Below, one piece after another: positions 11,338 to 55,680 of a stretch of 64,000 nucleotides of DNA. Origin of the DNA: Candidatus Omnitrophota bacterium. Lineage in GTDB: Bacteria > Omnitrophota > Gorgyraeia > DTHP01. Position 1 is the first letter of the stretch, and each line of letters starts with the position of its first letter. Under the pieces are notes generated by a model. It saw only the letters and a program-made list of their open reading frames with translations, made no database searches and was not told where the DNA came from. Both the position numbers and the translations under genes were made by a program. The DNA lies in assembly GCA_023819145.1 (NCBI GenBank), contig JAMWCW010000001.1, forward strand, positions 2,400 to 66,399, in the 5' to 3' direction.

Positions 11338-11355
11338 TCCTAAAAGTTAGGGAAA

Positions 11356-11387: not shown

Positions 11388-11395
11388 AACCGCCA

Positions 11396-40529: not shown

Positions 40530-43500
40530 ATGTTTAAGAAAAACACTCCCCGAGGAAAAATCTATAAGTATATTTGTGTGGTTGTGATTGAAATATTTAT
40601 TTTTACATCCATTGTTTCTTCTTGCCCGTCTTTTCCTGCCTTTAATGATATTTTTTTGTTAAGAAGAATCAGAGGAGGAGTTTCTGTGCCGGGAGTGACA
40701 GGATTTAGTCCTGCAAGTGAAAGTGAATTGTTAGCATACCTTTCTTCTTTAGGCATTACTCAAGAAACGGTCCGCGGTTTAGGTGCCACCAGTATGGAGA
40801 TTAGTGTTATTGATGCAAATTCTGATGGAATTCCAGAGGTTATAAAAATTGGAGATTATGTGACGATAGAATCCTCAATAGAAGGTTGGAAAGTTACTAC
40901 TACCTTGAATTCTGGAGAAGAAGTTCCTTTTAGGTTTGTGGGAGATACCCTCCATATTAAAAATCCTAATGGTTCAACAGCATTGATAAACTCCCAGTAT
41001 GTTGAGCAGGTTGACGAAGATTCTGTATCTGGTATAACCTATGATTTCAATGCCTTGCCGGACTTCTTTAGTTCCACTGATTCTGGACAATCACTTCAGG
41101 GATATCTCCAGGCAGGCTTAGAAGAAGATGGGCCAACTTATGGACTTGACGCGATGAAAGATGTAGGTATTGCTACGCTTGTATACGATAAAAGTGGAAA
41201 TCCTACTACCGTAGTCGTTAGATATGACGAAAAAACTTCTACCATGCAGTCATTATTCTATAGAGGACGTCAAGTGCTTGAGTGGATTAGAAGTAGAATT
41301 AAATCTGGTAAGTCTGCTATTGAAGCGGTAGATGAAGCGGTAGATTCAGGTTATGGAAGGACAACAAAGGTCGGTGAAGGTGGAGAATTCGTAGATAAAA
41401 GTAAAAGGGGCTGGATTTTATTAGGACTGTCTTCAGCAATAGCCGCAGGGTTAGCGGTTTTATATACGTATGCCTTTATGAGTGTAGATGTCAGCTCTGT
41501 ACTCACCCAGGTTCTCAATTATGTGTGTGCTACCGTTACGGGAATGTTAACTTATTCTATGTTTAGGCCGGCGGTAGCTCGAACCCTTAAGGGACTGGCC
41601 CTTCCTTTTTTAAATGTTCAAGATTTGGTTCATGAAGTGAAAGAAGACCCGGAAGTTTTAGAAAAAGGACTGCAGAGAGATGCAATGTATGTAATTTCCC
41701 ATTATAGGAATTTCGATGTTTTAGAGAAGGCTTTAGAAGCCACAATTCAAAAGAACGCAGAAGATATATTTGTTAGGGGTCTTATGAATGGTAAATTTCA
41801 TGTTGCATTGATGGGTATGGACAGTCTTAATCCCGCAAGTGTTGTGCGGGAAATAGAACTAATCAGAGATTTTACAGAAAGGACTTTTGAATATCAAGGT
41901 AAGAGGTATAGATATGGTGATTTTATAACTTTCTCATATTTCTTACGTAATCCTGCACATTTTATGCCTGAACAGGCAAGTGCTAAAGGATGGAAATGGC
42001 TTACTTTTATGTATTTAATAGACCTTGTCCAGAACGGGAATAGACTTCCTACCGCATATACTGAGTCTGAATTTGGAAGATACCAGGTTCCTGGTGACCA
42101 GCCTTCGTTCGCCGGGAGTCATCAAATAGTAGATGCTTTACTTGCTAAGGGTATAATCGATAGGGCAAAAGCAGAGCAACTGCTTAAAGAAGGGTTTATT
42201 ACTTTTAATCAACCGGGCTATGTTGACTTGGCTAGTTTCTTAGGTATTCCTGAGGCCGGTGGTAAGGGTAAAGGGAGGATAAACGACTTTCTTATTGTTG
42301 ATGAAGGGAATATCGTGGAAGGTCCTCATGATGGCAATATACATGGTGACCTTTTACGCTGGGCGGCAAAGGTTGCTTGGTCAGAGGAACATCTTACAAG
42401 ACAAGACGGAAGTCCCTTTTACGATATGTATGTTCCTCGTTTAATAATTCCTGAATCGGGAGAATTAAAGGAGTATACAAGGACTTTATTAGAACAGTTG
42501 AATGCTCTTGATGATAAACAAAACTTAGGATACGTAATTGCTGAACAATGGTTTTATAATCTTTTTATGTCCTCTGGCAAGGCTTGGATTAAAGGGGATA
42601 GATTTATTGAGCACGTTTTCCATCCAATTCAACAAACCGCAGACCTTCCCCCCCTGAGACAATTTGCCCAGAGAGTTGCTGATTTGGGAAAAACCCATCC
42701 CGAAATAGCAAAGATTTTCAGACCCCTTGTATTTTTAGCAGAAAGATATGCTGCTACAGAATATCTTCCTGGCTTAGGAGCGATGGTTGGACCGAATATG
42801 ACCTCGCACGACCATTGGGAGTCTTTTGTTAGTGCTTGCATGAGGATGTTAGATATAATTGTTCTTGATGATAGGCCAGAAACTATTCCTAAATCGGTTG
42901 ACCAAAGTTCCAGATTTGTGTATGGAGATGCTACTAAATGGTACCAAAAAGATTTACCTGCTTCGCCTTTCGGAGATTTCTTAAGAAAAGTTTTAGGACT
43001 GGGTAAAGTCGATGTTACTCGTCCTTCCGCTCCAGAACATCATTTAGAGCACAAAGCAGCAGCTGTAGAATATGCTTTTGGAGATGCGAGATTCTTGGGA
43101 TTTATAGCCTGGCAAATGCTCATGGCATATTTACCGGGATATATGGATTTACAGAATTTACCACTGGCTCTCGGAGTCGGTGCTTTTACCGCCCTCTTTG
43201 CGCATTCCATTATGCCTAAGTTGATTGTTCCTTTGATTACCGATTGGAAAACACAAATTAGCCCTCGTCTTGAGACAGCTTTTGCTAGTGGTGAAGCAGG
43301 AGAAATTTTAAAGGCAATAGGGAGTGGATTTTGGGCTTTAGGCAAGGATACGGCTTTGGATTTTCCCTTGAGTTTATTGGGAGACTGGTTTGTTTATATG
43401 CCGATGGTTTTGATTAAACCTTATCTGTTGGCAAAGAATATAATATACAATAAAGTATGGAAAGAATTTATAGGTGGAGAAAGAACTTGGTGGATTAAAC

Positions 43501-43754
43501 CTGTGCATATTGCTTTAGAAGGTGCTGCAAAGGAATGGAAGAAGATGCATCTTGACACTGATAGGATTTTTAGTAATGTAGTTGTGCCTTTAATGGGTTA
43601 TGGGCTCTTCCATTTATTGAGTGAACTCTTAGGCCCTGATTGGAGATGGATGGGAGCACCTCTGTTTGTTTCTTGGATGGCATGGCCAATGGTTTCTAAT
43701 GCCGAATGGGGGGTAAGAAAAATTACGCAATTAATAGAAGCGTTCTTTAGGTAA
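40530..43754 (+). CDS. polytopic integral membrane protein (~1074 aa) with large soluble loops
   Basis: RBS AAAGGAG before the ATG at 40530 (the track ORF starts 30 nt upstream). Signal-anchor 'YICVVVIEIFIFTSIVSS'. At least 7 further hydrophobic helices, e.g. 'GWILLGLSSAIAAGLAVLYTYAF', 'LALGVGAFTALFAHSIMPKLIVPLI', 'PLFVSWMAWPMV'. Confidence 0.45.
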   Translation: MFKKNTPRGKIYKYICVVVIEIFIFTSIVSSCPSFPAFNDIFLLRRIRGGVSVPGVTGFSPASESELLAYLSSLGITQETVRGLGATSMEISVIDANSDGIPEVIKIGDYVTIESSIEGWKVTTTLNSGEEVPFRFVGDTLHIKNPNGSTALINSQYVEQVDEDSVSGITYDFNALPDFFSSTDSGQSLQGYLQAGLEEDGPTYGLDAMKDVGIATLVYDKSGNPTTVVVRYDEKTSTMQSLFYRGRQVLEWIRSRIKSGKSAIEAVDEAVDSGYGRTTKVGEGGEFVDKSKRGWILLGLSSAIAAGLAVLYTYAFMSVDVSSVLTQVLNYVCATVTGMLTYSMFRPAVARTLKGLALPFLNVQDLVHEVKEDPEVLEKGLQRDAMYVISHYRNFDVLEKALEATIQKNAEDIFVRGLMNGKFHVALMGMDSLNPASVVREIELIRDFTERTFEYQGKRYRYGDFITFSYFLRNPAHFMPEQASAKGWKWLTFMYLIDLVQNGNRLPTAYTESEFGRYQVPGDQPSFAGSHQIVDALLAKGIIDRAKAEQLLKEGFITFNQPGYVDLASFLGIPEAGGKGKGRINDFLIVDEGNIVEGPHDGNIHGDLLRWAAKVAWSEEHLTRQDGSPFYDMYVPRLIIPESGELKEYTRTLLEQLNALDDKQNLGYVIAEQWFYNLFMSSGKAWIKGDRFIEHVFHPIQQTADLPPLRQFAQRVADLGKTHPEIAKIFRPLVFLAERYAATEYLPGLGAMVGPNMTSHDHWESFVSACMRMLDIIVLDDRPETIPKSVDQSSRFVYGDATKWYQKDLPASPFGDFLRKVLGLGKVDVTRPSAPEHHLEHKAAAVEYAFGDARFLGFIAWQMLMAYLPGYMDLQNLPLALGVGAFTALFAHSIMPKLIVPLITDWKTQISPRLETAFASGEAGEILKAIGSGFWALGKDTALDFPLSLLGDWFVYMPMVLIKPYLLAKNIIYNKVWKEFIGGERTWWIKPVHIALEGAAKEWKKMHLDTDRIFSNVVVPLMGYGLFHLLSELLGPDWRWMGAPLFVSWMAWPMVSNAEWGVRKITQLIEAFFR

Positions 43755-43766
43755 AAAGGAGCAATA

Positions 43767-46397
43767 ATGAGAACTGTTCGTATGAAAAAATTGAAAATTT
43801 GGATAACAATTTTCTTGCTTTTATCTTTCACAGAACACAGTTTATTTAATGTTTCTCTACCAAATAGCGCAGAAGGATATTTATTAAGAAGGATTAAAGG
43901 TGAGAGTTTCTCACCGACGGTCGTACTGAAAGGTTTAGGTTTTAAGGACGCACTTGAATTAAGAGTTGTAAAAAGCATTGATTCCTTAGCGAGTTTTAAA
44001 GATGGTGTTATTGAAATCTCCGAATCTTTACTTAATTCGGATTATCTCCTTCTTTTGGAAACAGAAAGAGTAGTAAATGAAAGAAAATATGCCCAAGAAT
44101 TTAGGAGCAGTTTAAACTTAACTGAACAAGAGATAAGAGCTTTAGCAAGGGCAAGAGAAGTTGGTCGTTTTCTCAGTTTATCTCCTCAACAACAGGAGCA
44201 TACTTTAGAAGCCCTAAGAGACATAGGAACTTCCGAAGCGCAACAGCTTCTGGTTTTATTTTCTAGAGCAAAAGAAAATGGTTTAGGGAGTGTTTTTGGT
44301 GAGATTTTTGCAGGGATGGGCTCAGTGCGAAACCGAGAAGTTTTTCTAAAGACTAATCCCAATTACAGATTTTTTATAGAGCGGTATGGACAAGGAGATG
44401 AACAAAGATGTCGAGAAGAATTAGAGAAGATTCTGGGAAGAAATATAACGGAGGATGAGTTTTTTAGAATTGTATTGGGAACTGTAGGTAGAGATGCTTT
44501 ATTAAGGCCATCTCAAATAGCACTTATCAGACATTCTGCCCGTGCACCTCCTTCAGAAAAACCAGATATTACGGTTATCGGAGGAAGCACGTGGCCTAAT
44601 TTATTAGCAGATAAATTGCGGGATGAAATACAACAAAACAACGGAGAAGTAACCAGAACAATAACCGTTGTTGTCTCTACCACCGATGATGGCGGTAGTT
44701 CTCGTATTATACAGAATATGTTAAGAGCTACCGATGCTTATCGGGTTTACATATTTTCTCCCGGAGATGCCATTAATGATTGGAAAGGATTTTCCGAACC
44801 AGCAATTCAAGCATTGATGGAGATACGTTTTAAGGGAGGTCGATATAAAAGTATGAGTTTTGAAGAAGCAGTTAAAGAAGCAATTGACCAGGTAGAGTCG
44901 GCATATCGAGGAGGATTTAAAGTAAATGTCAACGGCGAAGAAAAAATACTTTATTTACCCAAAAATTGGCTTGAATTTGTTTCGGATTTATTAAATGTCG
45001 CCCGGCATGTTGACGAAAGGTTTATTGCCACAGGCATTTTGTCTTTGGAGGGTCAGAGTTTAAGAAATCTCTTCTATATTGGCCTTTTAGATTATGCTGG
45101 TTATTTAGATGCAGGAGTAGTAAAAGGTGGAATGGAGAGAGGAAAACTTATAAGAGGAGCGAGCCTTTTAGCTCAAGCCCGTATAAACAAAGGATTTATT
45201 GATCAGGCTAATAAATTAGTGGCTAACATCCTAGGTGTAGGAGATATGGGATGGGTTGTTCCCAGTACCCATGATGAAGGAGTTGTTGTTGCCCGTCTCA
45301 GAAACGGAAATGTTGTGACCGAACAAACAGACATTTCTCGGCCTGCTCCTCGAAATGGAAGAGAACCATCGCGGGTTATAGGGGTCGATGGCAATCCAGT
45401 TTATAATCACGATGCTTTCACTAATCCTTCCCCTATTGACCATATGGAAATATGGTCTCCTGTTCGTAATCCAGATGGTAGAGAAACTTTATTAGATGAA
45501 TATAATGAAGATGGAAGTCGAAAAAGAAAATATCAACAGGTAGCCGGTTATTTCTTACAAGCGGTAGCAGAAACGATAGAAGCTATTAGAAATGCTCAAG
45601 GTGCTATTTTTATAACCTGTGGAAGTATTTTAACCAGTGTGGGAGCGAATTTGGTAGTCAAAGGGATTGTGGAAGCGTTGAGGATAAAGAAAGCAGAGGG
45701 AAAAGTTCCTATTATTTTATCTTTAAAACCACTTACTTCTAATGAGGATTGGGGTATGGAAGAAGATGGTTCTCATATTATAGGCGTGCTCTCTGCGCTT
45801 GAAAAATCCATTCAAATAGCCTTAGGTGATCCAAGTATAAAATTGAGTGATTTTATAACTCACGTCGTTCTCTTTGATACTCAAGATGGAAGCGCTATTA
45901 CTCCTACGATGGCAACTCAGATTAAATCAGGAATGTTACAATTTCCCGATGGTTCATTTGTCTTAGGTGAATATTCACATTTGGATCGAAGACCAAGAGG
46001 AGTGATGGGGGTAGCAGATAATCCCGATTGTTTACCTCAACGCCTTGGACAAATTGGCACAGAGGTAATAAAACATTTAGAAGAACTTACAAGTTCTAAA
46101 GATCCCCAAAAACCTCCACAAGTGATTCCTGGGTTATGGTATACGCACCTGAGCGCAATAAAGAAAGCGTGTGAAGTAAGAAGCCTCAGAGATTTGGGAG
46201 TGGAAAGCAAGAGCGAGGTGGAAGCAAGAATTAGAGCGCGATGGGGAAATTTGGGAATTGTTTATTGTTCCGAGATAGAAGAAGTCATAGAAGATTGGCG
46301 TTGGTATTTGCCCCCGACTTTACATGCCAAAGATTTGGAATATACCTATCGGTTTAGCTTAGAGGCTATATGGAGATTAATAACCGGAGGTATATAA
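43767..46397 (+). CDS. signal-peptide protein (876 aa) containing a YvcK/CofD-family (UPF0052, gluconeogenesis factor / 2-phospho-L-lactate transferase-like) domain
   Basis: RBS AAAAGGAG. Signal peptide 'KKLKIWITIFLLLSFTEHS'. 'PDITVIGGSTWPNLL...TVVVSTTDDGGSSRIIQNML...SPGDA' matches the YvcK 'VVIGGGTGL...AIVTVADDGGSSGRLR...PPGD' motifs. Later 'IFITCGSILTSVGANLVV' matches 'IIGPGSLYTSVLPNLLV' (B. subtilis YvcK recalled from memory). Confidence 0.6.
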   Translation: MRTVRMKKLKIWITIFLLLSFTEHSLFNVSLPNSAEGYLLRRIKGESFSPTVVLKGLGFKDALELRVVKSIDSLASFKDGVIEISESLLNSDYLLLLETERVVNERKYAQEFRSSLNLTEQEIRALARAREVGRFLSLSPQQQEHTLEALRDIGTSEAQQLLVLFSRAKENGLGSVFGEIFAGMGSVRNREVFLKTNPNYRFFIERYGQGDEQRCREELEKILGRNITEDEFFRIVLGTVGRDALLRPSQIALIRHSARAPPSEKPDITVIGGSTWPNLLADKLRDEIQQNNGEVTRTITVVVSTTDDGGSSRIIQNMLRATDAYRVYIFSPGDAINDWKGFSEPAIQALMEIRFKGGRYKSMSFEEAVKEAIDQVESAYRGGFKVNVNGEEKILYLPKNWLEFVSDLLNVARHVDERFIATGILSLEGQSLRNLFYIGLLDYAGYLDAGVVKGGMERGKLIRGASLLAQARINKGFIDQANKLVANILGVGDMGWVVPSTHDEGVVVARLRNGNVVTEQTDISRPAPRNGREPSRVIGVDGNPVYNHDAFTNPSPIDHMEIWSPVRNPDGRETLLDEYNEDGSRKRKYQQVAGYFLQAVAETIEAIRNAQGAIFITCGSILTSVGANLVVKGIVEALRIKKAEGKVPIILSLKPLTSNEDWGMEEDGSHIIGVLSALEKSIQIALGDPSIKLSDFITHVVLFDTQDGSAITPTMATQIKSGMLQFPDGSFVLGEYSHLDRRPRGVMGVADNPDCLPQRLGQIGTEVIKHLEELTSSKDPQKPPQVIPGLWYTHLSAIKKACEVRSLRDLGVESKSEVEARIRARWGNLGIVYCSEIEEVIEDWRWYLPPTLHAKDLEYTYRFSLEAIWRLITGGI

Positions 46398-46415
46398 AAA
46401 TAATGAGGGATTTTT

Positions 46416-48245
46416 ATGGTGAAAGAAGTTTCTAACAAATATGTAGAGATAAAACGTGGACTTTCTCGATTGGAAAAGTCTAAATTAGGACTTTTCTTTC
46501 TTTCATTGTCCTTTGTTTACTCATTATTTATCTTCACCATTAATTTTGACTTTGATAAAGTTAATATTACCCGAAGGATAAAGAGTCCTCTTCTAGATTT
46601 AGCTTCCTTGCGTGATGGAACAGATTTTTTCCCTTTTATGCTCTGGGAGGGGAAATTTACTGAGATTGTTTCTCGTAAAGAAGTTGCCAAGGAAAGAGTG
46701 GCTATTTATATTTGTAGAGGAGAGGGGAGGGTTTTAAAATTTTTAGTGGAGGTTCCCCAGGTTGAGGCATTGTCTAAGGATGACTTTGAAACAGTCTCTA
46801 ACTATGTTGCCCTTAAGATTTATCACGCCCTTACTTTATTTGGTGGAGAAAGTTTAGTTATTAATGGAAGCCCTAAGCTTTATGAGTCGGTCAAAGATAG
46901 GATTTTAAACTCTCTTTCCAAACAGGGAATGGATATAGGAAGTTTCTTAAAAATGGTCAGGGAAATTGACTCTTTTGATATTAACAGATATGCAAATTTA
47001 GAGGATACAGAAAAAACTCAATTAGAAAGACTTGCCAAGCCCATCGAATCACTTTTTGATTGTGAAGAAGATAGCCGTATTGCAATTATTCCTCGTTCAG
47101 AAATGCAGGGGACGGTGATTGGTTTAGATTTTGGTGGATCAGATATTAAAATTTCTGTTTTAATAAATGGAGATTCTAAATTTGAGAAGAAATTAAAATG
47201 GGATTCAAGTCATTTTTCATCTCTTGAAGAGCATAAAAGATATGCCAAAGCTCTTTTAAATTTCGCTCGATATTATGTTTCTTTAGAAGCTGTTAAATCA
47301 AAATATTCTGAATTATTTAAAGAATTTAGAGAAGCGAAGGAAAGATACGAAATTAGCCCTGCAGAGTTAGAAGATTTAGTTGAACTAGCTAAATCTTTGG
47401 GTATTAAGCCGTTGGAAGTAAAAGGGTTGGGTATTAGTATTGCTTGTGCGGTGCATAATGGCAGAATTACTGGGCCCGCACCAATGGTGGGAGGCCTGAA
47501 TATAAATGACCCAACGATAAAAGAGGAGGTGGCAGAATTCGGTTTTTGGATAGGTGAAAAATTATTGGGTTTACAACGTGAAAGAATAAAGATAATTAAT
47601 GATGGTGATGCGGGAGCAGTATATTCTTCAGCCAATCTTGGTTTAAGAAATGTTTTAACTTGGAGTTTAGGAACCGGATTGGCTACAGGATACGTGGATA
47701 GAAATGGGAGGATTGCTACAGATTTACTTACCGAAGGAGGAAATATTGTGCTGGATATGTCTCAGTTTTATAGAGACGATCCCATTGGTCATTCCGTTAC
47801 TGGGGTTCCTGGAGCCCTTCAGCAGTATCTCTCGCAACGCCCAGTGGTGAGAATGGTGATAGAGAAAGGAATTATTGACATTACTAATCCAGAATTCCGC
47901 AACCAGAGAGGAGATATAGACCAGAGAAAGATTCTTATCAGGATTCAAGAGATGTATAGCGATCCTGCAGTAGATAATATAGTAAAAAATCAGATAAAAG
48001 AAATATTTGAGACTATTGGTGTCTATCTTGCCCATGCTGTTGCTCAGGTTCAACCTTTATTAGGGATAGAAAATCTAATTATTTTTGGACAAGTGGTAGT
48101 GGGTGAGTTTGGAAGAATTGTCAAAGAAAAGGCAGAAGAGGTTTTAAGAGAACAATATCCGCAATTGAAAATAACAATTCATTCCGTAGAAAATCCTGAT
48201 TTTGCTCAGGCAATTGGAGCTGGTTATCTTGGATATTCTCCATAA
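46416..48245 (+). CDS. membrane-anchored ASKHA-superfamily sugar kinase (ROK/glucokinase-like) with ~220-aa N-terminal extension
   Basis: RBS GAGGGA. TM 'LGLFFLSLSFVYSLFIFTINF'. Phosphate-1 motif 'VIGLDFGGSDIKISV'. 'IINDGDAGAVYSS' resembles the ROK/glucokinase 'ENDANAAALGE' region. C-terminal 'LIIFGQVVVGEFG'. Confidence 0.5.
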   Translation: MVKEVSNKYVEIKRGLSRLEKSKLGLFFLSLSFVYSLFIFTINFDFDKVNITRRIKSPLLDLASLRDGTDFFPFMLWEGKFTEIVSRKEVAKERVAIYICRGEGRVLKFLVEVPQVEALSKDDFETVSNYVALKIYHALTLFGGESLVINGSPKLYESVKDRILNSLSKQGMDIGSFLKMVREIDSFDINRYANLEDTEKTQLERLAKPIESLFDCEEDSRIAIIPRSEMQGTVIGLDFGGSDIKISVLINGDSKFEKKLKWDSSHFSSLEEHKRYAKALLNFARYYVSLEAVKSKYSELFKEFREAKERYEISPAELEDLVELAKSLGIKPLEVKGLGISIACAVHNGRITGPAPMVGGLNINDPTIKEEVAEFGFWIGEKLLGLQRERIKIINDGDAGAVYSSANLGLRNVLTWSLGTGLATGYVDRNGRIATDLLTEGGNIVLDMSQFYRDDPIGHSVTGVPGALQQYLSQRPVVRMVIEKGIIDITNPEFRNQRGDIDQRKILIRIQEMYSDPAVDNIVKNQIKEIFETIGVYLAHAVAQVQPLLGIENLIIFGQVVVGEFGRIVKEKAEEVLREQYPQLKITIHSVENPDFAQAIGAGYLGYSP

Positions 48246-48501
48246 AAACAAAAGATAAAATAAATTTAATCACTAAATTCAAACTCTAAATATCAAAATG
48301 CGTAGCACAAAATAGGTTTCTAAGACAAATCGTAAAGACAAATGTTCGTAACTCAATAGAAAATGTTTTAATATAGAGGATATTGCTCATACGAAGTAAT
48401 TTTATAGAGAATGTCCTTAGTGGGAAAGATTGGCAATCTGAAGTTAATAAGAGATGAATGTAGTATTTTAAAAAATTTTTTAATTTATGATTCAGCTACT
48501 C

Positions 48502-48529
48502 TTGACACTTTTATAAATTATGCTATCCT
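48502..48529 (+). promoter_or_regulatory. possible promoter upstream of pgi (TTGACA, 16 nt, TGcTATCCT)
   Basis: ctcTTGACActtttataaattaTGcTATCCT; weaker -10. Confidence 0.3.
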
Positions 48530-48594
48530 TTTTAAGGATGCATTAATTTTTTTAACTTTATTAAAATAAAAATAATTAACTTAAGGGGGGAAAG

Positions 48595-50445
48595 ATGAAA
48601 AAGAATTTTGAAGGAATAGTTCTTTTTAGTTTTGTATTTTTGGGCATTTTTGTTATACTATTGAAAATGGACCTTAGCAGTGATTCTATCTTCAGAAGAT
48701 TAAAAATCCCATTTCAATCTACACAAACCAATATGTCCGTGCGTGAGGAACGGTTCCCTTTAGACCCCAATAAAGGAGCTTGGCGAGAAAATCCTACGCA
48801 GGATACCCACTGGCTTACTTTACCTCTTGATTGTCAGGGTATGCTTGAGAAAATCGTTGATTTTGCCCAGAGGCATAAAGGAGAATACACCCATATTGTG
48901 GTTATTGGTATGGGTGGTTCATCTCGTCCGGCAGATGTAATTCGAGGAGTTTTGGGGACAGAAGAAGGTTGGGCAGAAATCCATGTAATGGAAAACCTTG
49001 ACGAAGCAGATATTCAGAAAATTAAAGGAGAAATTGACCCTACGCGCACTTTGTTTATCTCTATTTCTAAATCAGGGACAACTGCGGAAACCAATGCCTT
49101 AACCAGAATTGCTTATGATTGGATTATTCAGGCAGGACTTGACCCCTCAAAACACTTTATTGCCATCACCACTACTTCCCGAGATAGTTTCTTGATGAAA
49201 TTTTTGAAAGATAATAATGTTCCTTTAGAAAATATTTTTGAACATCCTGACCAGGTAGGAGGAAGATACACAATTTTTTCGGTTATTGGGATGCTCCCTG
49301 CAGCCCTTGCTGGTCATGATATAAACACCATTCTTTCCTTCGCGCGGCAAGCAATGGAATCTCAGGTTAAGTATGATTTAGGTGAGTTTTTAGCAAAGAT
49401 GGAGTCAGAAGGAAGAATCTATATGCGCGTAGTTCTACCTGAGGAACTGGCTTCATTAGGCCCTTGGATTGAACAGCTGGTAGCAGAAAGTTTGGGTAAA
49501 ATAGACGTGGTGGGAAGGAATAGAGGCATTGTCCCTGTGTTGGAACGCGATTATGATGAAGGGATTTATAATGAGGGTACCTTTTGTTTAAGAATAAAGT
49601 TGGGCAGTTCTGATGCTCGGGATGGTTTTACTGAGAGAGTAAAGGCAAAAGGAGTACCTGTTTGGGAGATTCAGGTAAATAGTCCTGAAGAGGCAATTGG
49701 TGGGCTCTATTTATTAGAATTTGCTACCGGTATGGCAGGAGTTCTTATGGGAATAGACCCCTTTGATCAGCCCGGAGTAGAAGAAGGGAAGAAAGCTACT
49801 AACAGGATGAAAGAAGAGATCCTTGCCCAGATTAATCAGGGCAAAACTTTAGAAGAGGCCTATGGTGATTTTCTTGAAAGCCAAAGGAGTATTTATCGTG
49901 TGGAGATTGCTCCAGGTGTAACCTTGGATTTTGGAGCCTTAATGCAAGTGGCACGGGATGAGTTTTTTGAATTTATCTGGGAAAAGAAAAAAGATTTAGA
50001 TAATTTAACTGCCCAAGAGATTTATGCACTCGTTCTAGAATTTGCTAAAAGTAAGGGTAAAACTTATGGCGCAATCTTACCCTATGCACAGGAAACAACC
50101 GAAAGAGCAGTTACCTGGAGTCAGGCACGGGGAGTTTTAAGAAGGTTTGGATTGCAAGATATCTATGGAATTGGTCCAGTATATGAGCATTCATTAAGAC
50201 AATATTTACAACAGGGACCTGATAAAGGAATTCCTACTTTTATTGTGGTTAATGACATTGGTACACAGGTGATTCCCGGGGAAAAGATTCCTGGTTTTAC
50301 CACCGGAATGCAGAATGTCTTACAGGCATTAGGTACACAGCAGGCTCTAACTAATGCCGGTAGATATACCATAAGAATAGAAATTGAAGGACCACTTACC
50401 CTCGATAAACTGCGTGTTTTAGAATCATTTTTCAGCGGCATCTAA
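48595..50445 (+). CDS. pgi: glucose-6-phosphate isomerase with N-terminal TM/signal extension
   Basis: RBS AAGGGGGG. PGI signatures 'HIVVIGMGGSSRPADVIRGVLG', 'FISISKSGTTAETNALT', 'DQVGGRYTIFSVIGMLPAALAG' (GGRYS motif). N-terminal hydrophobic helix 'IVLFSFVFLGIFVILL', which canonical PGIs lack. Confidence 0.8.
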   Translation: MKKNFEGIVLFSFVFLGIFVILLKMDLSSDSIFRRLKIPFQSTQTNMSVREERFPLDPNKGAWRENPTQDTHWLTLPLDCQGMLEKIVDFAQRHKGEYTHIVVIGMGGSSRPADVIRGVLGTEEGWAEIHVMENLDEADIQKIKGEIDPTRTLFISISKSGTTAETNALTRIAYDWIIQAGLDPSKHFIAITTTSRDSFLMKFLKDNNVPLENIFEHPDQVGGRYTIFSVIGMLPAALAGHDINTILSFARQAMESQVKYDLGEFLAKMESEGRIYMRVVLPEELASLGPWIEQLVAESLGKIDVVGRNRGIVPVLERDYDEGIYNEGTFCLRIKLGSSDARDGFTERVKAKGVPVWEIQVNSPEEAIGGLYLLEFATGMAGVLMGIDPFDQPGVEEGKKATNRMKEEILAQINQGKTLEEAYGDFLESQRSIYRVEIAPGVTLDFGALMQVARDEFFEFIWEKKKDLDNLTAQEIYALVLEFAKSKGKTYGAILPYAQETTERAVTWSQARGVLRRFGLQDIYGIGPVYEHSLRQYLQQGPDKGIPTFIVVNDIGTQVIPGEKIPGFTTGMQNVLQALGTQQALTNAGRYTIRIEIEGPLTLDKLRVLESFFSGI

Positions 50446-50458
50446 CCGCTAACCTCAT

Positions 50459-50504
50459 CCACCTCGTAGGTGGCCCCCTTGCCCACCTACGAGGTGGGCA
50501 AGGG
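50459..50504. other. GC-rich palindromic element with two mutually exclusive stem-loops, between pgi and the nagB-like gene
   Basis: ccacctcgtaggtgg (50459-50473) is the reverse complement of ccacctacgaggtgg (50483-50497). A perfect 13-bp hairpin cccttgcccacct-acg-aggtgggcaaggg spans 50476-50504. No U-tract follows. ~70% GC in a ~38% GC context. Confidence 0.6.
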
Positions 50505-50515
50505 TCTAAACGAAG

Positions 50516-51370
50516 ATGTTTTCTAAAAATATAGTTCTAAAGACAATTCTAACTTTTATCTTTTTCTCTGCAAATTTTCTCTCTTCTCTAAATCACAATT
50601 TAGCTTTCCGTAGACAAAAAACTTATGCTTATAGTGAACTTTATATTGGAAAAAATAGAGTAATAGTTTCTGCTGATTATGAAGAAATGTCGCAGACTGC
50701 CTGCCGGATGCTCATGGCAAGAGTTCATCAGTTGGCTAAAGAAAAGGAAGAAATAGTTATTGGACTTCCTACGGGAAATACTCCCAAAAGACTTTATGAA
50801 ATCTTAAGGACAGAGTATAAAGATGACCCTGTTTGGAAGAAGGTTATTTTAATACAGCTTGATGAGTATGTGGGAATAGGACCAGATTCATCTTTGAGTT
50901 TTCGCCAAGAATTAGAAGAACAACTTTTAAAATATCTTCCCTTTAAGCGATTCGTAGGTATTGTTGGCGGAGCTTCGGATATAGAAGAAGAAAGAGTGCG
51001 TTACGCAAGAGAAATAGAAGCTTTAGGAGAGATAGATATTTTGGTTTTAGGAATTGGACAAAATGGCCATTTGGCTTTCAATGAGCCAGGTTTTATTACG
51101 GGAAACTCAGTGGGAGTAGTGGAATTAACTCCCCAGACAAAAGAGGTAAACGATGTAGATTTTACCCATGCTTATACCTTAAGTCTTAAAACCATCCTTA
51201 GCGCAAAAGAAGTTATCCTTCTTGCTTCCGGAGAGAAAAAGAAAGAGATTATAGAAAAAACGATTTTCGGGATAGTTACTCCTTTTGTTCCTGCTTCTTT
51301 TCTTCAGAATCATCCTCAAACTACCTTTATACTTGACCGCTCTGCAACATCTGATAAGATATTGAAGTAA
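50516..51370 (+). CDS. nagB: glucosamine-6-phosphate deaminase/isomerase (NagB family) with ~45-aa N-terminal hydrophobic extension
   Basis: 'EIVIGLPTGNTPKRLYEIL' matches NagB 'FVLGLPTGGTP'. 'ILVLGIGQNGHLAFNEPG' matches NagB 'GVGNDGHIAFNEP'. N-terminus 'IVLKTILTFIFFSANFLSS' is signal-peptide-like. No internal start candidate near the canonical NagB N-terminus. Confidence 0.7.
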   Translation: MFSKNIVLKTILTFIFFSANFLSSLNHNLAFRRQKTYAYSELYIGKNRVIVSADYEEMSQTACRMLMARVHQLAKEKEEIVIGLPTGNTPKRLYEILRTEYKDDPVWKKVILIQLDEYVGIGPDSSLSFRQELEEQLLKYLPFKRFVGIVGGASDIEEERVRYAREIEALGEIDILVLGIGQNGHLAFNEPGFITGNSVGVVELTPQTKEVNDVDFTHAYTLSLKTILSAKEVILLASGEKKKEIIEKTIFGIVTPFVPASFLQNHPQTTFILDRSATSDKILK

Positions 51371-51373
51371 AAA

Positions 51374-52933
51374 ATGTTAAAGAAATTTATTATCTTACTG
51401 ATTTTTATTCCTCTGCTTTCACAAAATTCTTTTTTAAAGCGTGATTTCTCTTATAGAAGAATCCTCGCTCCCAGAGCTTCTTTCTATTTGGCTACAAGTG
51501 ATGGCCGACCAATTAGTTTAGAATATGGGCAATTCCCTGATAAAGAACTCTACTTGCGTTTTCTTAACCCCCAAGAAATAAAAGAGGCTGCAATTAATTT
51601 CGCTGCTCGTATTGGTTCCGCAGATGACTTTTTAAAAATTCTTCTTACCTTAGGGGCCTTAAGGCAGTACCAAGCGAGAGAAATTACTCTTATCCTTGAA
51701 GACTGGACTCCGTTTTCTGAAGAAGACTACTTGTTGATTTCTATCTTCAGGATATTTGCGGATAAAGTTTGTCTTGCCTATACCCAAACCAAAGAGACTT
51801 ATTTTTTGCCGATAAAGCCGATCACTCTCCAAGAAAAAGTAACCGGTCCAATACATATTGACTATGTTACATATCTTACACCACGCTTTAAACCGACCGT
51901 AGAGGAGGCAGTTTCCCGTTTGCAAGATGCAGAAAGCGCATTTATTAAAGTAAGCCAAGATTTTAGCGGGCACTGGGAAGTTTCTTTACCTTTTAATTTA
52001 GTAGGGAAAAATGTCGTCATTATTCACTCTACAGAAAACTCAGAAAATATTTTGTCTTTAATTTTAACCAGCGCTTTAATGAGATTAAAAGGGGTAAAGA
52101 CAGTTTCTCTGATTAATACCTATCAGGGCTATAGTCGTCAGGATAAAGAGTTTAAAGAGGGAGAGTGTATCTCGAGCTACATTTTACTTAAAGTATTAAA
52201 TTCCCTTTTAGACCATAACTTTACGGTAAATGTTCACTATGGAAAAAAGAGCGGTTTAATTGATCTTTCTCCAGAGGTCTGGATAACTGATGATGAGGCT
52301 AATCGCCAAACCCTAAACGTCCTCACCCCCCAGGCGGTTTACAACCTCAATGGTTTTGTGCAGTTGGCAGAAGGCTTATTAGGCATCATTAAGAAGGAAC
52401 AGGGTATAACTGATTTGAGAAGTTTGCCCCTTCTTCTTATTTCTCCCGATGACGGAAGTTTCTTTTATGTAAAGGAAGCAGTTAGTGTACTTAGAGACCG
52501 TTATGGAATAGAAGCAATTTCTGGATATTTAAACAAAGAAAGGCTTGGTTCTAGCGAAGTAGTAATTACGGGAGAAATTCTGGAAAATGATGGAAGACCA
52601 CTTACTTTTCCTTATAGTTTAAAAGATTATTATATCTTTATCCTTGATGATGAAACCTCAACTGGTTCTACCATAAAATCTGCAGTTTATCATTTGGTAG
52701 AAAAATTGGGAATAGACTATAATAAGATTTATGCGGGAGTAGTCCATGGAAAATTTTCTTTAGGGACAGAGGAGTTTTATAAACTAAAAGATAAAGAAAT
52801 GCTTCCTCAAGTTTTAGTCACTTTAGACACTTTAGAAGTCCCTGAGGGAATAAAAACAATTTCTTCTTCAGCACTCATCGCGTATTGCATCAAGCGCATT
52901 TTGGGATTAACTGAGCCTATTCGTAGTCCGTAA
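51374..52933 (+). CDS. ribose-phosphate pyrophosphokinase (PRPP synthetase)-like protein with ~160-aa N-terminal extension including a signal-peptide-like segment
   Basis: 'VVIIHSTENSENILSLILTSALMRLKGVKTVSLINTYQGYSRQDK' matches Prs '[45 protein letters not shown]'. PRTase motif 'IFILDDETSTGSTIKSA' matches 'VLVDDMIDTGGT'. Start 3 nt after the nagB-like stop. Confidence 0.55.
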   Translation: MLKKFIILLIFIPLLSQNSFLKRDFSYRRILAPRASFYLATSDGRPISLEYGQFPDKELYLRFLNPQEIKEAAINFAARIGSADDFLKILLTLGALRQYQAREITLILEDWTPFSEEDYLLISIFRIFADKVCLAYTQTKETYFLPIKPITLQEKVTGPIHIDYVTYLTPRFKPTVEEAVSRLQDAESAFIKVSQDFSGHWEVSLPFNLVGKNVVIIHSTENSENILSLILTSALMRLKGVKTVSLINTYQGYSRQDKEFKEGECISSYILLKVLNSLLDHNFTVNVHYGKKSGLIDLSPEVWITDDEANRQTLNVLTPQAVYNLNGFVQLAEGLLGIIKKEQGITDLRSLPLLLISPDDGSFFYVKEAVSVLRDRYGIEAISGYLNKERLGSSEVVITGEILENDGRPLTFPYSLKDYYIFILDDETSTGSTIKSAVYHLVEKLGIDYNKIYAGVVHGKFSLGTEEFYKLKDKEMLPQVLVTLDTLEVPEGIKTISSSALIAYCIKRILGLTEPIRSP

Positions 52934-53488: not shown

Positions 53489-53658
53489 AAATTGTAGGTT
53501 TTGGTTATCACTTAAGTCACAGAAAAATAAAAGAATACCAAAAAATGCCTTTAGAAAAAAGACTCCTCTGGCTTTACCAGGGAAATCTCTTGCGTAGGGC
53601 ATATCCTAAGCGTATTATTAAGATGCAGGATAAATTTCGCAAAGGAGAGATTTCGTAA
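53485..53658 (+). CDS. small basic protein (57 aa) overlapping the NTase gene by ATGA
   Basis: The ATG overlaps the TGA of the upstream gene (aagATGAaa). 'MKIVGFGYHLSHRKIKEYQKMPLEKRLLWLYQGNLLRRAYPKRIIKMQDKFRKGEIS'. Below the track size cut-off; no homology recognised. Confidence 0.25.
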   Translation: MKIVGFGYHLSHRKIKEYQKMPLEKRLLWLYQGNLLRRAYPKRIIKMQDKFRKGEIS

Positions 53659-53830: not shown

Positions 53831-53908
53831 GTAACTACTTCTGTAGAACATCGGGATCCCGAAGCGATTATTAAATAAGCGAATTCATTTTGGATAAACT
53901 GTAATTTC

Positions 53909-53939: not shown

Positions 53940-53968
53940 AATAAGCCAACCCAAGGAGGCTTTTAAGA

Positions 53969-55195: not shown

Positions 55196-55660
55196 ATGAA
55201 AAAGATAATAGGAGGAGTGATCGTTGCAACAATAATATTAATTCCCCTGAATGTTTTAGCAGTTGAGGTAAGCAATACACAGTTTGGCGCGATGGTACAA
55301 GATAGCATTACAGAAACTACGATTCAAGGAATGCGAATAAGCGGTCCTCAATTAAGGGATCTGATTGTTCAGCCGCCAGCTTTTCTGCAGGCCGAAATTA
55401 ATGCTATCGTTGGAATATTTAATGCGATTGATATAGAGGGGCTTGCAAGCTCCGGTAAAACGGTCTCGGAGATAGTTAGTGAAAATCAGGCAGCATTAGA
55501 AGCAATAGTTAGACGATTACTAATAGCTCATGTCTTAAAGACAAAAGGTATCGCAAACCAAGCTGCTAAGCAAGAGGCAGAATTGGTTGTTAATGGGATT
55601 CTTCGAAGTGAAGCTGGCAGAGCTTTTCTCAATCAAACAATAACGAATTTAGTGGATTAG
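55196..55660 (+). CDS. small secreted alpha-helical protein (154 aa)
   Basis: RBS GAAGGAGGGAG. Signal peptide 'IIGGVIVATIILIPLNVLAVEV'. Confidence 0.45.
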   Translation: MKKIIGGVIVATIILIPLNVLAVEVSNTQFGAMVQDSITETTIQGMRISGPQLRDLIVQPPAFLQAEINAIVGIFNAIDIEGLASSGKTVSEIVSENQAALEAIVRRLLIAHVLKTKGIANQAAKQEAELVVNGILRSEAGRAFLNQTITNLVD

Positions 55661-55680
55661 ATTAGTTAATAAGAAGGGGG

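What the first reader, a model, noticed from the sequence alone, without database searches (positions are those of the whole stretch)
43767..52933. Five consecutive sugar-phosphate/nucleotide enzymes, each with an N-terminal signal-peptide-like or TM extension
The YvcK/CofD-family protein, ASKHA sugar kinase, glucose-6-phosphate isomerase, NagB-type GlcN6P deaminase and PRPP-synthetase-like protein are all normally soluble cytoplasmic enzymes. Here every one begins with a hydrophobic helix preceded by basic residues; three look like classical Sec signal peptides. The run sits directly downstream of a 1074-aa polytopic membrane protein and a block of giant secreted proteins. Together the enzymes span a hexose/hexosamine-phosphate route: hexose to G6P to F6P to GlcN6P, plus a UDP-sugar-binding YvcK-like module. 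This suggests a membrane-tethered (or, less plausibly, exported) metabolon that feeds or senses synthesis of a surface glycan. I do not know of a described system with this architecture. The extensions cannot be dismissed as start-codon artefacts for the NagB-like gene: I found no in-frame start candidate near the canonical NagB N-terminus.
Basis: partly seen in the sequence, partly recalled or inferred. Interest (0 to 1): 0.85.

Follow-up and report, generated by a model that had tools for sequence, protein, structure and literature searches.

The report
Twin-arginine box on membrane-targeted enzyme array
In an uncultivated Omnitrophota bacterium, six neighbouring genes (five sugar-phosphate or nucleotide enzymes and a large membrane protein) all begin with the same signal-like hydrophobic helix followed by an invariant Arg-Arg motif, an apparently undescribed address label that may show where this phylum's odd multi-enzyme proteins work.

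Summary
The window comes from a Candidatus Omnitrophica MAG. All five enzyme genes (CofD-like, ROK-like, PGI-like, NagB-like, PRPP-synthetase-like) carry genuine N-terminal extensions, and so does the preceding 1074-aa membrane protein.

- a basic n-region;
- a hydrophobic helix;
- a roughly 10-residue polar or acidic linker;
- the motif Φ-x-Φ-R-R-[I/V]-[K/R].

None of the 19 other N-terminally hydrophobic ORFs in the window has it. Orthologues and neighbouring genes in ten other loci keep it (39 of 72 such ORFs), always in contiguous arrays. It is selected at the protein level.

These N-termini differ from ordinary signal peptides of the same loci. They have no Ala-x-Ala site and a net positive downstream flank. 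They are not Tat or lipoprotein signals.

The same enzyme modules occur fused in multi-kiloresidue relatives, some of them Omnitrophota, so the array is the unfused counterpart of the published giant multi-enzyme proteins.

My best reading (about 45%) is an uncleaved Sec-type anchor with the enzymes outside the cytoplasm and the RR box as a shared recognition element. A cytoplasmic-face tether (about 30%) is not excluded.

I rate it a new variant of a known kind, interest about 0.7.

The parts
40530..43754 (+). 1074-aa polytopic membrane protein, the first member of the RR-box array. It is an orphan family with no Pfam or NCBIfam match.
   Evidence: ORF. NCBI annotates the ATG start (P0391, 1074 aa). 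Only one other homologue was found (P0392, 71% identical), and it keeps AARRIKS. No family hits. Hydrophobic segments listed.
40530..40673 (+). N-terminal module of the 1074-aa protein: MFKKNTPRGK, then a hydrophobic helix, then NDIFLLRRIR.
43767..46397 (+). 876-aa CofD-superfamily protein. The module MRTVRMKKLK, helix and EGYLLRRIK is encoded at 43767-43898.
   Evidence: Pfam CofD E 6e-17. NCBIfam YvcK 45 bits, below its cutoff of 196. Motif. The same module is fused with the ROK-like module in P0356, P0254, P0251 and P0346.
46416..48245 (+). 609-aa ROK/ASKHA-like sugar-kinase homologue. The N-terminal module ends in KVNITRRIK (46416-46583).
   Evidence: Pfam ROK E 1e-3. Family profile A4 against PDB glucokinase 2qm1, E 9e-22. 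DxGxxxxK, the NDGD Asp and other ASKHA positions are invariant. Its relatives are largely multi-enzyme proteins.
48502..48529 (+). Promoter-like site (TTGACA-16-TATCCT, with TG upstream) in the 349-nt AT-rich gap before the PGI-like gene.
   Evidence: This is a consensus match only, and such sites are not enriched over shuffles. No ORF lies in the gap.
48595..50445 (+). 616-aa PGI-like isomerase of a distinct clade with Omnitrophota-named members. The module MKKNFEG, helix and SDSIFRRLK is encoded at 48595-48705.
   Evidence: Pfam PGI E 1e-25. The clade runs from 46 to 100% identity, then drops sharply to about 30% for ordinary PGIs. Catalytic-type Glu298, Lys399 and His532 are invariant in the clade. 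Most full-length clade members keep the signal plus RR.
50516..51370 (+). 284-aa NagB/6PGL-superfamily protein. The module MFSKNIVLK, helix and HNLAFRRQK is encoded at 50516-50620.
   Evidence: Pfam E 9e-24. AF2 model pLDDT 93, with a helix at 3-29, the RR box at 30-36 with pLDDT below 50, and the domain starting at residue 40. Foldseek match to NagB 2bkv/2ri0, TM 0.88. D116, H185 and E190 are kept. The segment aligned to the Arg/Lys-rich NagB stretch is shortened and lacks those basic residues.
51374..52933 (+). 519-aa archaeal-type PRPP-synthetase-like protein with an insertion of roughly 135 residues. The module MLKK, helix and RDFSYRRIL is encoded at 51374-51466.
   Evidence: Pfam Pribosyltran_N E 3e-12. 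NCBIfam scores are below their cutoffs. The Prs fold starts right after the RR box: residues 48-73 align to M. jannaschii Prs residues 26-51. YSRQDK and DDxxSTG are kept. The L004 orthologue is 65% identical.
55196..60909 (+). Conserved downstream partners of the arrays: a small secreted protein (154 aa, ordinary signal peptide) and a 1742-aa protein. Neither has an RR box.
   Evidence: The same pair follows the arrays in L002 and L004. The 1742-aa protein is 26% identical by tblastn to the L004 giant. Ordinary AxA-type signals.

Best explanation
The six genes at 40530-52933 form an 'RR-box array'. It is a set of enzyme homologues plus one polytopic membrane protein, and each carries the same lineage-specific N-terminal targeting module.

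The module has four parts:
- a basic n-region, net about +2.3;
- a hydrophobic helix, core median 15 residues;
- a polar or acidic linker, median about 10 residues;
- an exposed linear motif Φ-x-Φ-R-R-[I/V/T/A]-[K/R].

Shown:
- the module exists;
- it is translated and selected at the protein level;
- it is specific to contiguous arrays;
- it is conserved across diverged orthologues while the rest of the N-terminus drifts;
- it differs from ordinary cleavable signal peptides of the same loci;
- the enzyme cores keep the catalytic residues I checked;
- the same enzyme modules occur fused in long multi-enzyme proteins, some of them Omnitrophota, that have a single N-terminal signal.

Inferred mechanism:
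- SRP/Sec engages the helix, and it stays as an uncleaved signal-anchor (N-in, C-out).
- All members are therefore pinned side by side on the outer face of the cytoplasmic membrane.
- The juxtamembrane RR box is the handle for a common partner, which could be a scaffold, a sorting factor or a processing protease.
- The array would be the 'one gene per module' version of the giant multi-enzyme proteins of this phylum.
- It would handle phosphorylated sugars and nucleotides outside the cytoplasm, plausibly material from a host or prey.

The existence and shared-targeting role of the module I hold at about 0.75. The outside orientation I hold at about 0.45.
For: Motif and specificity.
- Window: 6 of 6 array genes against 0 of 19 other N-terminally hydrophobic ORFs. 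Across the window plus 10 loci, 39 of 72, all contiguous.
- Logo from 43 examples: RR 43/43, I/V at +2 in 29/43, K/R at +3 in 32/43, F/L/Y at -1 in 29/43.
- RR is otherwise rare in these proteins.

Conservation.
- NagB-like orthologues at 38-58% identity all keep the signal plus xRR[IV][KRQ]. Ordinary NagBs start directly at the domain.
- The PGI clade behaves the same way.
- Arrays in L002, L004, L086, L087, L088 and L090-L093 include Gmk-like, ChaN-like, PGM, PGI, PRK+methyltransferase, NagB, NUDIX, CofD, ROK, PPDK_N-like, PHP and HEAT proteins.

Protein-level selection.
- All six Arg codons are used, as in the background.

Linear motif.
- AF2 gives a helix at 3-29, then a disordered RR box, then the folded domain.

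Sec-like features.
- n-region net +2.3. The h-core runs from 7 to 23 residues, and several are too short to be classical TM anchors.

Export is supported by relatives.
- The ROK, CofD and PGI modules are fused in proteins of 2-6 thousand residues.
- Several of these start with textbook AxA signal peptides and have few other hydrophobic segments: P0252, P0254, P0257, P0259 and P0338.
- No internal RR boxes were found in them, so the box is an N-terminal signal and not a linker.

Context and literature.
- The array sits between genes for secreted giant proteins and glucan-active secreted proteins.
- Two preprints place such enzyme domains in signal-peptide or TM-bearing giant Omnitrophota proteins.
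- The Walker-A Lys is replaced by Gln in the Gmk-like and PRK-like array members, which fits an ATP-poor location.
Against: - No topology predictor could be run.
- The 20 residues after the helix are net +1.4, against -1.0 for ordinary signal peptides of the same loci (Mann-Whitney p about 1e-5). By established E. coli rules this hinders Sec export: the positive-inside rule, and inhibition by basic residues early in the mature region (my knowledge).
- No AxA sites.
- The enzymes need cytoplasmic substrates or cofactors (ATP, ribose-5-P, sugar phosphates). They keep catalytic residues in the PGI, NagB, ROK and Prs homologues.
- One PGI-clade member lacks the extension altogether (P0135; stop codons lie upstream).
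- In the 1074-aa protein, basic residues flank a TM hairpin on the side of the N-terminal domain.
- No partner for the RR box was identified.
Confidence: 0.45

Rival explanations
1. Cytoplasmic-face tether or metabolon. The hydrophobic helix associates with, or re-enters, the inner leaflet, and both basic flanks stay in the cytoplasm. This would be a 'frustrated' or monotopic anchor, as in PglC-type re-entrant helices. The RR-K/R cluster would be the topogenic export block and lipid or scaffold contact. The enzymes would work in the cell's own cytoplasm, pinned next to membrane machinery such as the 1074-aa protein.
For: - Both flanks are basic: N-flank +2.3 and C-flank +1.4, against -1.0 in exported proteins of the same loci.
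- No AxA sites.
- Catalytic residues are intact, and the substrates and cofactors are cytoplasmic.
- P0135 is a natural extension-less clade member.
- Published giant proteins of this kind also contain receiver, radical-SAM, GNAT and methyltransferase domains. One has about one predicted TM helix per 1000 residues, which is hard to thread alternately across a membrane.
- The histidine kinase in the window has a similar acidic-then-basic flank on its cytoplasmic side (sequence).
Against: - The n-region looks like a Sec n-region, which disfavours an N-out, C-in arrangement.
- The helices are uniformly hydrophobic and not amphipathic.
- AF2 shows a straight helix, not a hairpin.
- Invariant RR (never KK, KR or RK in 43 examples) together with conserved hydrophobic neighbours points to specific recognition and not to charge alone.
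- Fused relatives carrying the same modules have canonical cleavable signal peptides.
Confidence: 0.3
2. Host- or prey-directed effectors. The Sec signal plus RR box would be a two-step export label, working like PEXEL/TEXEL or RxLR motifs. It would route metabolic enzymes through the T2SS/Tad-like system of these bacteria onto or into a host cell, where ATP and sugar phosphates are available.
For: - The motif sits a short, variable distance after a signal-like helix, in a disordered linker.
- The enzymes need a cytoplasm-like chemical environment.
- Omnitrophota are described as host-dependent or predatory, and their giant genes lie next to T2SS/T4P-like systems.
Against: - No secretion system lies in this window.
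- There is no evidence of processing.
- One member is a polytopic membrane protein, which is an unlikely secreted effector.
- The resemblance to eukaryotic parasite motifs is an analogy from memory only.
Confidence: 0.07
3. Annotation or start-codon artefact, or chance. The true proteins would start downstream, and the hydrophobic stretches and RR would be untranslated or coincidental.
For: - Some database gene calls for relatives start after the motif: P0128-P0130 and the L004 Prs-like gene.
Against: - Shine-Dalgarno-like motifs sit at the long starts, and gene spacing is tight.
- The NagB-like gene has no alternative start before codon 58.
- The motif is conserved in divergent orthologues with varied Arg codons.
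- 6 of 6 against 0 of 19 in the window.
- In L004 the reading frame stays open upstream through a hydrophobic stretch.
Confidence: 0.02
4. Known signal types: Tat signal peptides or lipoprotein signals.
For: - An invariant twin arginine recalls the Tat motif.
- The 1074-aa protein has a VSSC lipobox-like tetrapeptide.
Against: - RR lies after the hydrophobic region, not before it, and no hydrophobic stretch follows it.
- No Tat or other signal model hits in Pfam or NCBIfam.
- There is no conserved Cys or lipobox across members.
Confidence: 0.02

Closest known systems
Giant multi-enzyme proteins of Omnitrophota ('Archaeovorins' and 'multi-enzyme metabolic clusters'; bioRxiv 10.1101/2023.11.21.568195 and 10.64898/2026.06.07.730766)
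   Same: - Same phylum.
- Same repertoire of cytoplasmic-type domains: PGI, PGM/PMM, ROK, NUDIX, HAD, PPDK_N, methyltransferase and HEAT.
- The domains are combined with signal peptides or TM helices.
- Same genomic neighbourhood features: secreted giants, pilZ downstream in L002, and a C39-like N-terminus at 62579.
- The window's ROK-, CofD- and PGI-like modules are found fused in relatives of 2-6 thousand residues.
   Different: - Here every module is a separate gene of 284-1074 aa with its own N-terminal signal.
- The conserved RR box is not mentioned in either preprint: a search of the 2026 preprint found 'motif' and 'sorting' nowhere, a search of the 2023 preprint found 'sorting' nowhere, and no such motif appears in the sections read.
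- The fused relatives I fetched have no internal RR boxes.
Sec (SPase I) signal peptides and type II signal-anchors
   Same: - A basic n-region followed by a hydrophobic h-region at the extreme N-terminus.
   Different: - No Ala-x-Ala site: 0/30 against 6/15 for ordinary signals in the same loci.
- Net positive downstream flank.
- Several h-cores are too short for an anchor.
- An invariant RR box sits downstream.
Twin-arginine (Tat) signal peptides
   Same: - An essentially invariant Arg-Arg pair with hydrophobic neighbours, next to a hydrophobic segment.
   Different: - The order is reversed, with RR after the helix.
- There is no h-region or AxA after RR.
- No TAT-signal model matches.
Post-signal sorting motifs: PEXEL/TEXEL (RxLxE, RRLxx) and oomycete RxLR in eukaryotic parasites, and the lipoprotein export signal of Bacteroidota (from my own knowledge)
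   Same: - A short linear motif lies a few to a few tens of residues after a signal sequence.
- It is shared by functionally unrelated cargo.
- It lies in a disordered region.
   Different: - Different organisms and machinery.
- No evidence here of cleavage or of host delivery.
- No lipidated Cys.
Re-entrant or monotopic N-terminal membrane helices, as in PglC-type phosphoglycosyl transferases (from my own knowledge)
   Same: - A hydrophobic N-terminal helix with basic residues on both sides, attached to a cytoplasmic-type enzyme.
   Different: - No conserved helix-break-helix (Ser-Pro) element.
- AF2 predicts a straight helix.
- The RR box lies about 10 residues beyond the helix, after an acidic linker.

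Membership tests
Sec/SPase I signal peptide | Positively charged n-region followed by a hydrophobic h-region of 7-15 residues | tested here: met
   n-region net about +2.3 to +2.5. h-core median 15, range 7-23.
Sec/SPase I signal peptide | c-region with small residues at -3/-1 (Ala-x-Ala) and a neutral or acidic early mature region | tested here: not met
   AxA in 0/30 RR-type N-termini against 6/15 ordinary ones. [AVS]xA in 5/30 against 9/15. C-flank net +1.4 against -1.0. SignalP could not be run.
Tat signal peptide | An S/T-R-R-x-F-L-K motif in the n-region, before the h-region, with an AxA site after it | tested here: not met
   RR follows the hydrophobic helix and no hydrophobic stretch comes after it. 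No Pfam or NCBIfam signal model hits.
Lipoprotein (SPase II) signal | A lipobox [LVI][ASTVI][GAS]C at the end of the h-region | tested here: not met
   Only the 1074-aa protein has a VSSC-like tetrapeptide. The other five, and the orthologues, have no lipobox.
Glucose-6-phosphate isomerase (PGI, PF00342) | Pfam score above the gathering threshold, plus the catalytic Glu, Lys and His and the SIS motifs | tested here: met
   90.8 bits against a cutoff of 22. Glu298, Lys399 and His532 are invariant in the clade and align to PGI motifs in PDB chains. All NCBIfam equivalog cutoffs are missed, so this is a divergent clade and its activity is untested.
Glucosamine-6-phosphate deaminase (NagB) | NagB fold, catalytic Asp/His/Glu, and substrate-phosphate-binding Arg/Lys | tested here: inconclusive
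   Fold and Pfam membership are met. D116, H185 and E190 are kept. The segment aligning to the basic stretch 'SRT...VPKKA' of B. subtilis NagB is shortened and lacks the Arg/Lys. That these residues bind the phosphate is from my own knowledge. The TIGR00502 score is 153.7 against a cutoff of 236.9.
ROK / ASKHA sugar kinase | ROK profile match and ASKHA phosphate-binding motifs with the catalytic Asp | tested here: met
   The single sequence falls below the Pfam cutoff, at 18.8 against 22.9 bits. The family profile hits ROK glucokinase 2qm1 at 9e-22 over the whole domain. D238, G240, K245 and D396 are invariant. Kinase activity and the phosphoryl donor are untested.
Ribose-phosphate diphosphokinase (Prs) | Both Prs domains with the RQD(K/R) and DDxxxTGxT motifs, and an NCBIfam score above the cutoff | tested here: inconclusive
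   Pribosyltran_N is above the Pfam cutoff. The motifs are present and the alignment to M. jannaschii Prs comes in three pieces. TIGR01251 scores 98 against a cutoff of 113, and there is an insertion of about 135 residues.
CofD / YvcK (GlmR) family | CofD Pfam domain. For YvcK specifically, the TIGR01826 cutoff. | tested here: inconclusive
   CofD scores 62.2 bits against a cutoff of 30 but covers only profile positions 1-209 of 290. YvcK scores 45 bits against a cutoff of 196. It is a superfamily member. UDP-GlcNAc binding is not established.
Omnitrophota giant multi-enzyme proteins | A single polypeptide of 10,000 aa or more tiling many enzyme domains with a signal peptide or TM helices | tested here: not met
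   The proteins here are 284-1074 aa and are encoded separately. Homologous modules are fused in relatives, which shows relatedness and not membership.

The most novel reading that the evidence does not exclude
The signal-like helix plus RR box is the address label of a previously unknown protein-sorting route in Omnitrophota. That route would deliver a whole set of active, cytoplasmic-type sugar-phosphate and nucleotide enzymes out of the cell, to the cell surface or into an attached host or prey cell. It would be a bacterial counterpart of the PEXEL/RxLR host-targeting signals, and it would also explain where the phylum's giant multi-enzyme proteins act.
Probability: 0.08. Interest if true: 0.95.

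Novelty: new variant of a known kind. Interest (0 to 1): 0.7.

Why it matters
Omnitrophota are widespread, mostly uncultivated, host-dependent nanobacteria. They are known for giant proteins that string together dozens of 'cytoplasmic' enzyme domains with signal peptides and TM helices. Where those domains work is explicitly left open in the two preprints that describe them.

The RR-box arrays give that question a small, tractable handle.
- They are ordinary-sized genes.
- The motif is crisp and invariant, so it can be mutated (RR to KK).
- The module can be fused to reporters.
- It can be used as a search key across genomes to list the full cargo set.
- It can be used to find the co-occurring partner by phylogenetic profiling.

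If the box marks a dedicated sorting, processing or assembly step, it would be a new bacterial targeting signal. If it only fixes topology, it still shows how a reduced-genome parasite organises sugar and nucleotide metabolism at its membrane.

Tried and rejected
Searches that gave little:
- The look-up of encoding contigs with the window's NagB-like protein found nothing. An identical NCBI protein does exist (P0001).
- The genome-contig scan with the full PGI-clade alignment was swamped by ordinary PGIs. Its patterns were WIEQL[VLI]AE and [IV]GMGGSSRP, and only L006 was a clade member.
- The metagenome scan with a clade-specific C-terminal alignment gave only 5 loci, so the clade is rare in that collection.
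- The 1074-aa protein has a single homologue, so no alignment or structure was attempted.
- phmmer of the ROK-like protein against the PDB found nothing. The family profile was needed.

Ideas tested and rejected:
- The RR box as a repeated internal module boundary in fused giants. No internal helix-plus-RR units were found.
- A nucleotide-level element. All six Arg codons are used.
- A Tat signal, a lipobox, or any curated N-terminal domain model.
- A start-codon artefact.
- A hidden gene in the 349-nt gap between the ROK-like and PGI-like genes. There is no ORF, only a promoter-like match.

Left unresolved:
- Positive-inside analysis of the 1074-aa protein was too ambiguous to settle sidedness.

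Full report
**Origin and anatomy**

The window belongs to a Candidatus Omnitrophica MAG. The NagB-like, PGI-like and 1074-aa proteins are 100% identical to NCBI proteins from a 221-kb contig, with locus tags NC818_00130 and NC818_00145.

Pfam confirms CofD (E 6e-17), PGI (1e-25), Glucosamine_iso (9e-24) and Pribosyltran_N (3e-12). ROK is only marginal for the single sequence (1e-3, below the gathering score). A profile of the ROK-like protein's relatives hits the ROK glucokinase 2qm1 at 9e-22 over the whole domain. All NCBIfam equivalog cutoffs are missed, so these are divergent members.

**The extensions are real**
- AGGAG-like or G-rich Shine-Dalgarno-type motifs precede the ATGs of the 1074-aa, CofD-like, ROK-like and PGI-like genes. 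The motif before the NagB-like ATG is weaker.
- The Prs-like ATG lies 3 nt after the NagB-like stop codon.
- The NagB-like gene has no in-frame start between codons 2 and 57. Its canonical domain begins near residue 47.

The 1074-aa membrane protein (ATG at 40530) and the five enzymes share one bipartite N-terminal module. It consists of a basic n-region, a hydrophobic helix, a short polar or acidic linker, and then a motif. The six motifs are FLLRRIRG, YLLRRIKG, NITRRIKS, SIFRRLKI, LAFRRQKT and FSYRRILA.
- RR is otherwise rare. In four of the six proteins it is the only RR in 284-1084 residues.
- None of the 19 other ORFs in the window with an N-terminal hydrophobic segment has RR within 45 residues. 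My Fisher arithmetic gives p about 6e-6.

**Conservation elsewhere**
- NagB-like orthologues at 38-58% identity all keep 'signal + xRR[IV][KRQ]': EFRRVKS, LFRRIKP, FSSRRIQC, YSLRRIRF, LYRRIRE and SYRRVKE. Ordinary NagBs begin directly at the domain.
- The PGI-like protein belongs to a sharply separated clade. Identity runs from 46 to 100% and then drops to about 30% for ordinary PGIs. Most full-length members carry the module.
- Contigs fetched around these orthologues show whole arrays of consecutive genes with the module.
  - L002 has eight: an unknown, Gmk-like, an unknown, ChaN-like, PGM, PGI, PRK+methyltransferase and NagB.
  - L004 has Gmk-like, an unknown, PPDK_N-like, ChaN, PGM, PGI, NagB and Prs.
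  - L086 has ROK, a small protein, PGI, an unknown and PRK-methyltransferase.
  - L087 has an unknown, CofD, NUDIX and an unknown. Its TAL and PGI carry a variant, NQTVR[VM]VRG.
  - L088 has HATPase_c_2, PHP, HEAT and a protein of about 1150-1170 aa.
  - The genes that follow the arrays (PilZ, LeuRS, ComEA-like and others) lack the module.
- A uniform ORF scan of the window and ten loci found 72 ORFs with an N-terminal hydrophobic segment. Of these, 39 have the RR box, always as contiguous blocks.

**Motif properties, from 43 examples**
- Consensus: [DENS]-[DNSE]-[LFY]-[SILV]-[FLYA]-R-R-[IVTA]-[KR].
- RR in 43/43, I/V at +2 in 29/43 and K/R at +3 in 32/43.
- h-core median 15 residues (range 7-23).
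- Gap from the h-core to RR median 10 residues (range 2-43).
- Linker net charge -0.7.

All six Arg codons are used at both positions, in background-like proportions. Selection therefore acts on the protein and not on an RNA or DNA element.

**Structure**

The AF2 model of the NagB-like protein has pLDDT 93. It shows a helix at 3-29, a low-confidence stretch exactly over AFRRQKT (residues 30-36, pLDDT below 50), and a NagB fold from residue 40. Foldseek gives TM 0.88 to 2bkv and 2ri0. The box is therefore an exposed linear motif in a linker and not part of the fold.

**How the module compares with known signals**
- It is not a Tat signal. RR follows the helix, nothing hydrophobic comes after it, and no Pfam or NCBIfam signal model matches.
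- It is not a lipoprotein signal, because there is no conserved lipobox.
- It is Sec-like in its n and h regions, with an n-region of about +2.3.
- It differs from the ordinary signal peptides of secreted proteins in the same loci in two ways.
  - Ala-x-Ala occurs in 0/30 against 6/15, and [AVS]xA in 5/30 against 9/15.
  - The 20 residues after the h-core are net +1.4 against -1.0 (Mann-Whitney p about 1e-5).

**Are the enzymes intact?**
- PGI-like: Glu298, Lys399 and His532 are invariant in the clade and align with PGI motifs in PDB chains.
- NagB-like: D116, H185 and E190 are retained. The segment aligned to the Arg/Lys-rich stretch of B. subtilis NagB is shortened and lacks those residues, so the substrate may differ.
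- Prs-like: the fold starts immediately after the RR box, there is an insertion of about 135 residues, and the YSRQDK and DDxxSTG motifs are kept.
- ROK-like: the ASKHA phosphate-binding motifs and the catalytic Asp are kept.
- In related arrays, the Gmk-like and PRK/uridine-kinase-like members have Gln in place of the Walker-A Lys. This is seen in L002 and, by inspection, in L004 and L086. They are probably not kinases.

**Relation to the giant proteins**

A HMMER search of 1.8 billion representatives with the ROK-like protein returned 113 hits at E of 1e-10 or better. Many are proteins of 2,000-6,300 aa in which the ROK-like module is internal.

BLASTP shows CofD-like and ROK-like modules in the same polypeptides and in the same order as the genes here (P0356, P0254, P0251). 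One protein has PGI, then ROK, then CofD (P0346). Others add aldose epimerase, PRK, HAD and PHP domains. Named members are Omnitrophota (P0320, P0352) and Desantisbacteria (P0268).

This matches two preprints. One describes 'Archaeovorins', containing PGI, PGM, FBA, TPI, PPDK_N, NUDIX and HAD domains 'predicted to be extracellular', with the authors cautioning that this could be wrong. The other describes 'multi-enzyme metabolic cluster' giants, 94% of which have a signal peptide or TM helices. Searches of the two preprints found 'sorting' in neither and 'motif' nowhere in the 2026 one, and the sections I read mention no such motif. The window's array is thus the unfused counterpart of these proteins.

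The fused relatives I fetched have no internal helix-plus-RR units. Several begin with textbook cleavable signal peptides (SYA/QS, AAA/QP, TYA/QS, VKA/FD, AFA/FQ) and have very few other hydrophobic segments. The partial P0268 N-terminus has a helix plus EIYRRVYG. The box is therefore an N-terminal signal, one per polypeptide.

**Mechanism**

Firm (about 0.75): the module is a shared, lineage-specific targeting or anchoring signal that brings all array members to one membrane-associated place.

Sidedness is inferred, not shown.

For an outside orientation (N-in, C-out, uncleaved anchor, or processing by a dedicated enzyme near the box):
- Sec-like n and h regions;
- h-cores too short for classical anchors in about a quarter of cases;
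- homologous modules in relatives with canonical signal peptides;
- the logic that unfused modules each need their own signal, whereas one suffices for a fusion;
- a neighbourhood of secreted giants and glucan-active secreted proteins, namely GH144-like, MdoG and CBM11;
- the Walker-A losses.

For a cytoplasmic-face tether:
- the basic downstream flank and the missing AxA site;
- intact catalytic residues, with cytoplasmic substrates and cofactors;
- a natural clade member without the extension (P0135);
- the published domain repertoire of the giants, which includes receiver, radical SAM and GNAT domains.

I put these at about 0.45 and about 0.30. Delivery to a host or prey cell is a minority variant at about 0.07.

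The strict invariance of RR, with no KK, KR or RK among the 43 collected examples, together with the conserved hydrophobic neighbours, argues for recognition by a specific partner and not for a mere charge effect. No partner was identified in this window.

**Verdict**

It is less unprecedented than claimed, because exported or anchored cytoplasmic-type enzyme domains are already a noted oddity of Omnitrophota. I class it as a new variant of a known kind, with interest about 0.7.

Noticed in passing
P0320, P0352, P0353, P0311 (relatives fetched): Several fused multi-enzyme relatives carry a different short motif repeated at apparent module boundaries: 'RSELR' x9 in P0320, 'LQTSSTRK' x8 in P0352, and 'KSFPAGE' x7 in P0353, with variants in P0311. 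They look like recurrent linkers or possible processing sites of polyprotein-like giants.
   Followed up: partly
L002:384-1856 and 7755-9944; L004:587-2101; L086:5836-8034: The guanylate-kinase-like and PRK/uridine-kinase-like members of RR-box arrays have Gln in place of the Walker-A lysine (SGTGQGT, GRTGAGQTT, GYTGAGQSI). This suggests loss of phosphotransfer, i.e. pseudo-kinases or binding modules.
   Followed up: partly
window 8180-40494: A block upstream of the array encodes glucan-related proteins. These are a GH94 phosphorylase without a signal peptide (8180-10633), two CBM11 proteins, three 'Glycoamylase'/DUF3131 (GH144-like) proteins including the 3803-aa and 1411-aa giants, and an MdoG-like protein (15921-18503). 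Most have ordinary signal peptides or lipoboxes and none has an RR box.
   Followed up: partly
window 52997-54656: Between the Prs-like gene and the downstream secreted pair lie an AbiEii/DUF6036-like nucleotidyltransferase (52997-53488) and a Polbeta-NTase/HepT-like pair (53969-54238 and 54231-54656). That pair is a MNT-HEPN-type toxin-antitoxin module. The region has lower GC, 0.34-0.35.
   Followed up: partly
window 62579-64000: An ORF running off the window's end starts with a hydrophobic segment and has a weak Peptidase_C39 match (E 5e-4, below the cutoff). This resembles the C39-bearing N-termini reported for giant Omnitrophota genes, so it may be the start of one.
   Followed up: no
L004:10890-11080: The 5' region of the Prs-like orthologue contains two copies of a roughly 55-nt element encoding 'PNPVHLRG.PDCHLRGG', each with an internal palindrome (CCACCTACGAGGTGG). 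It lies between the hydrophobic stretch and the LRRV box, and the frame stays open. It looks like a small repeat element inserted into the signal-coding region.
   Followed up: no
L087:8372-9844 and 10001-12079; L006; P0242; P0142: A subclade uses a variant box with the two arginines spaced apart: NQTVR[VM]VRG, QSVRVVRG and TVHRIVRSG. It occupies the same position after the helix.
   Followed up: no
window 44550-44570 (CofD-like residues ~262-268); P0251, P0254, P0356, P0346: The tetrapeptide RAPP immediately precedes the start of the CofD-like domain, both in the window's protein (ARAPPSEKPDITVIGGS) and in the fused relatives. It is a conserved domain-boundary feature of this CofD subfamily.
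   Followed up: no
window 4245-7969 (- strand): An operon on the opposite strand encodes a FIST-domain protein, a GAF histidine kinase with two TM helices, and a receiver-GGDEF response regulator. Cyclic-di-GMP signalling genes and PilZ proteins are reported next to giant genes in this phylum, and L002 has a PilZ gene right after its array.
   Followed up: no
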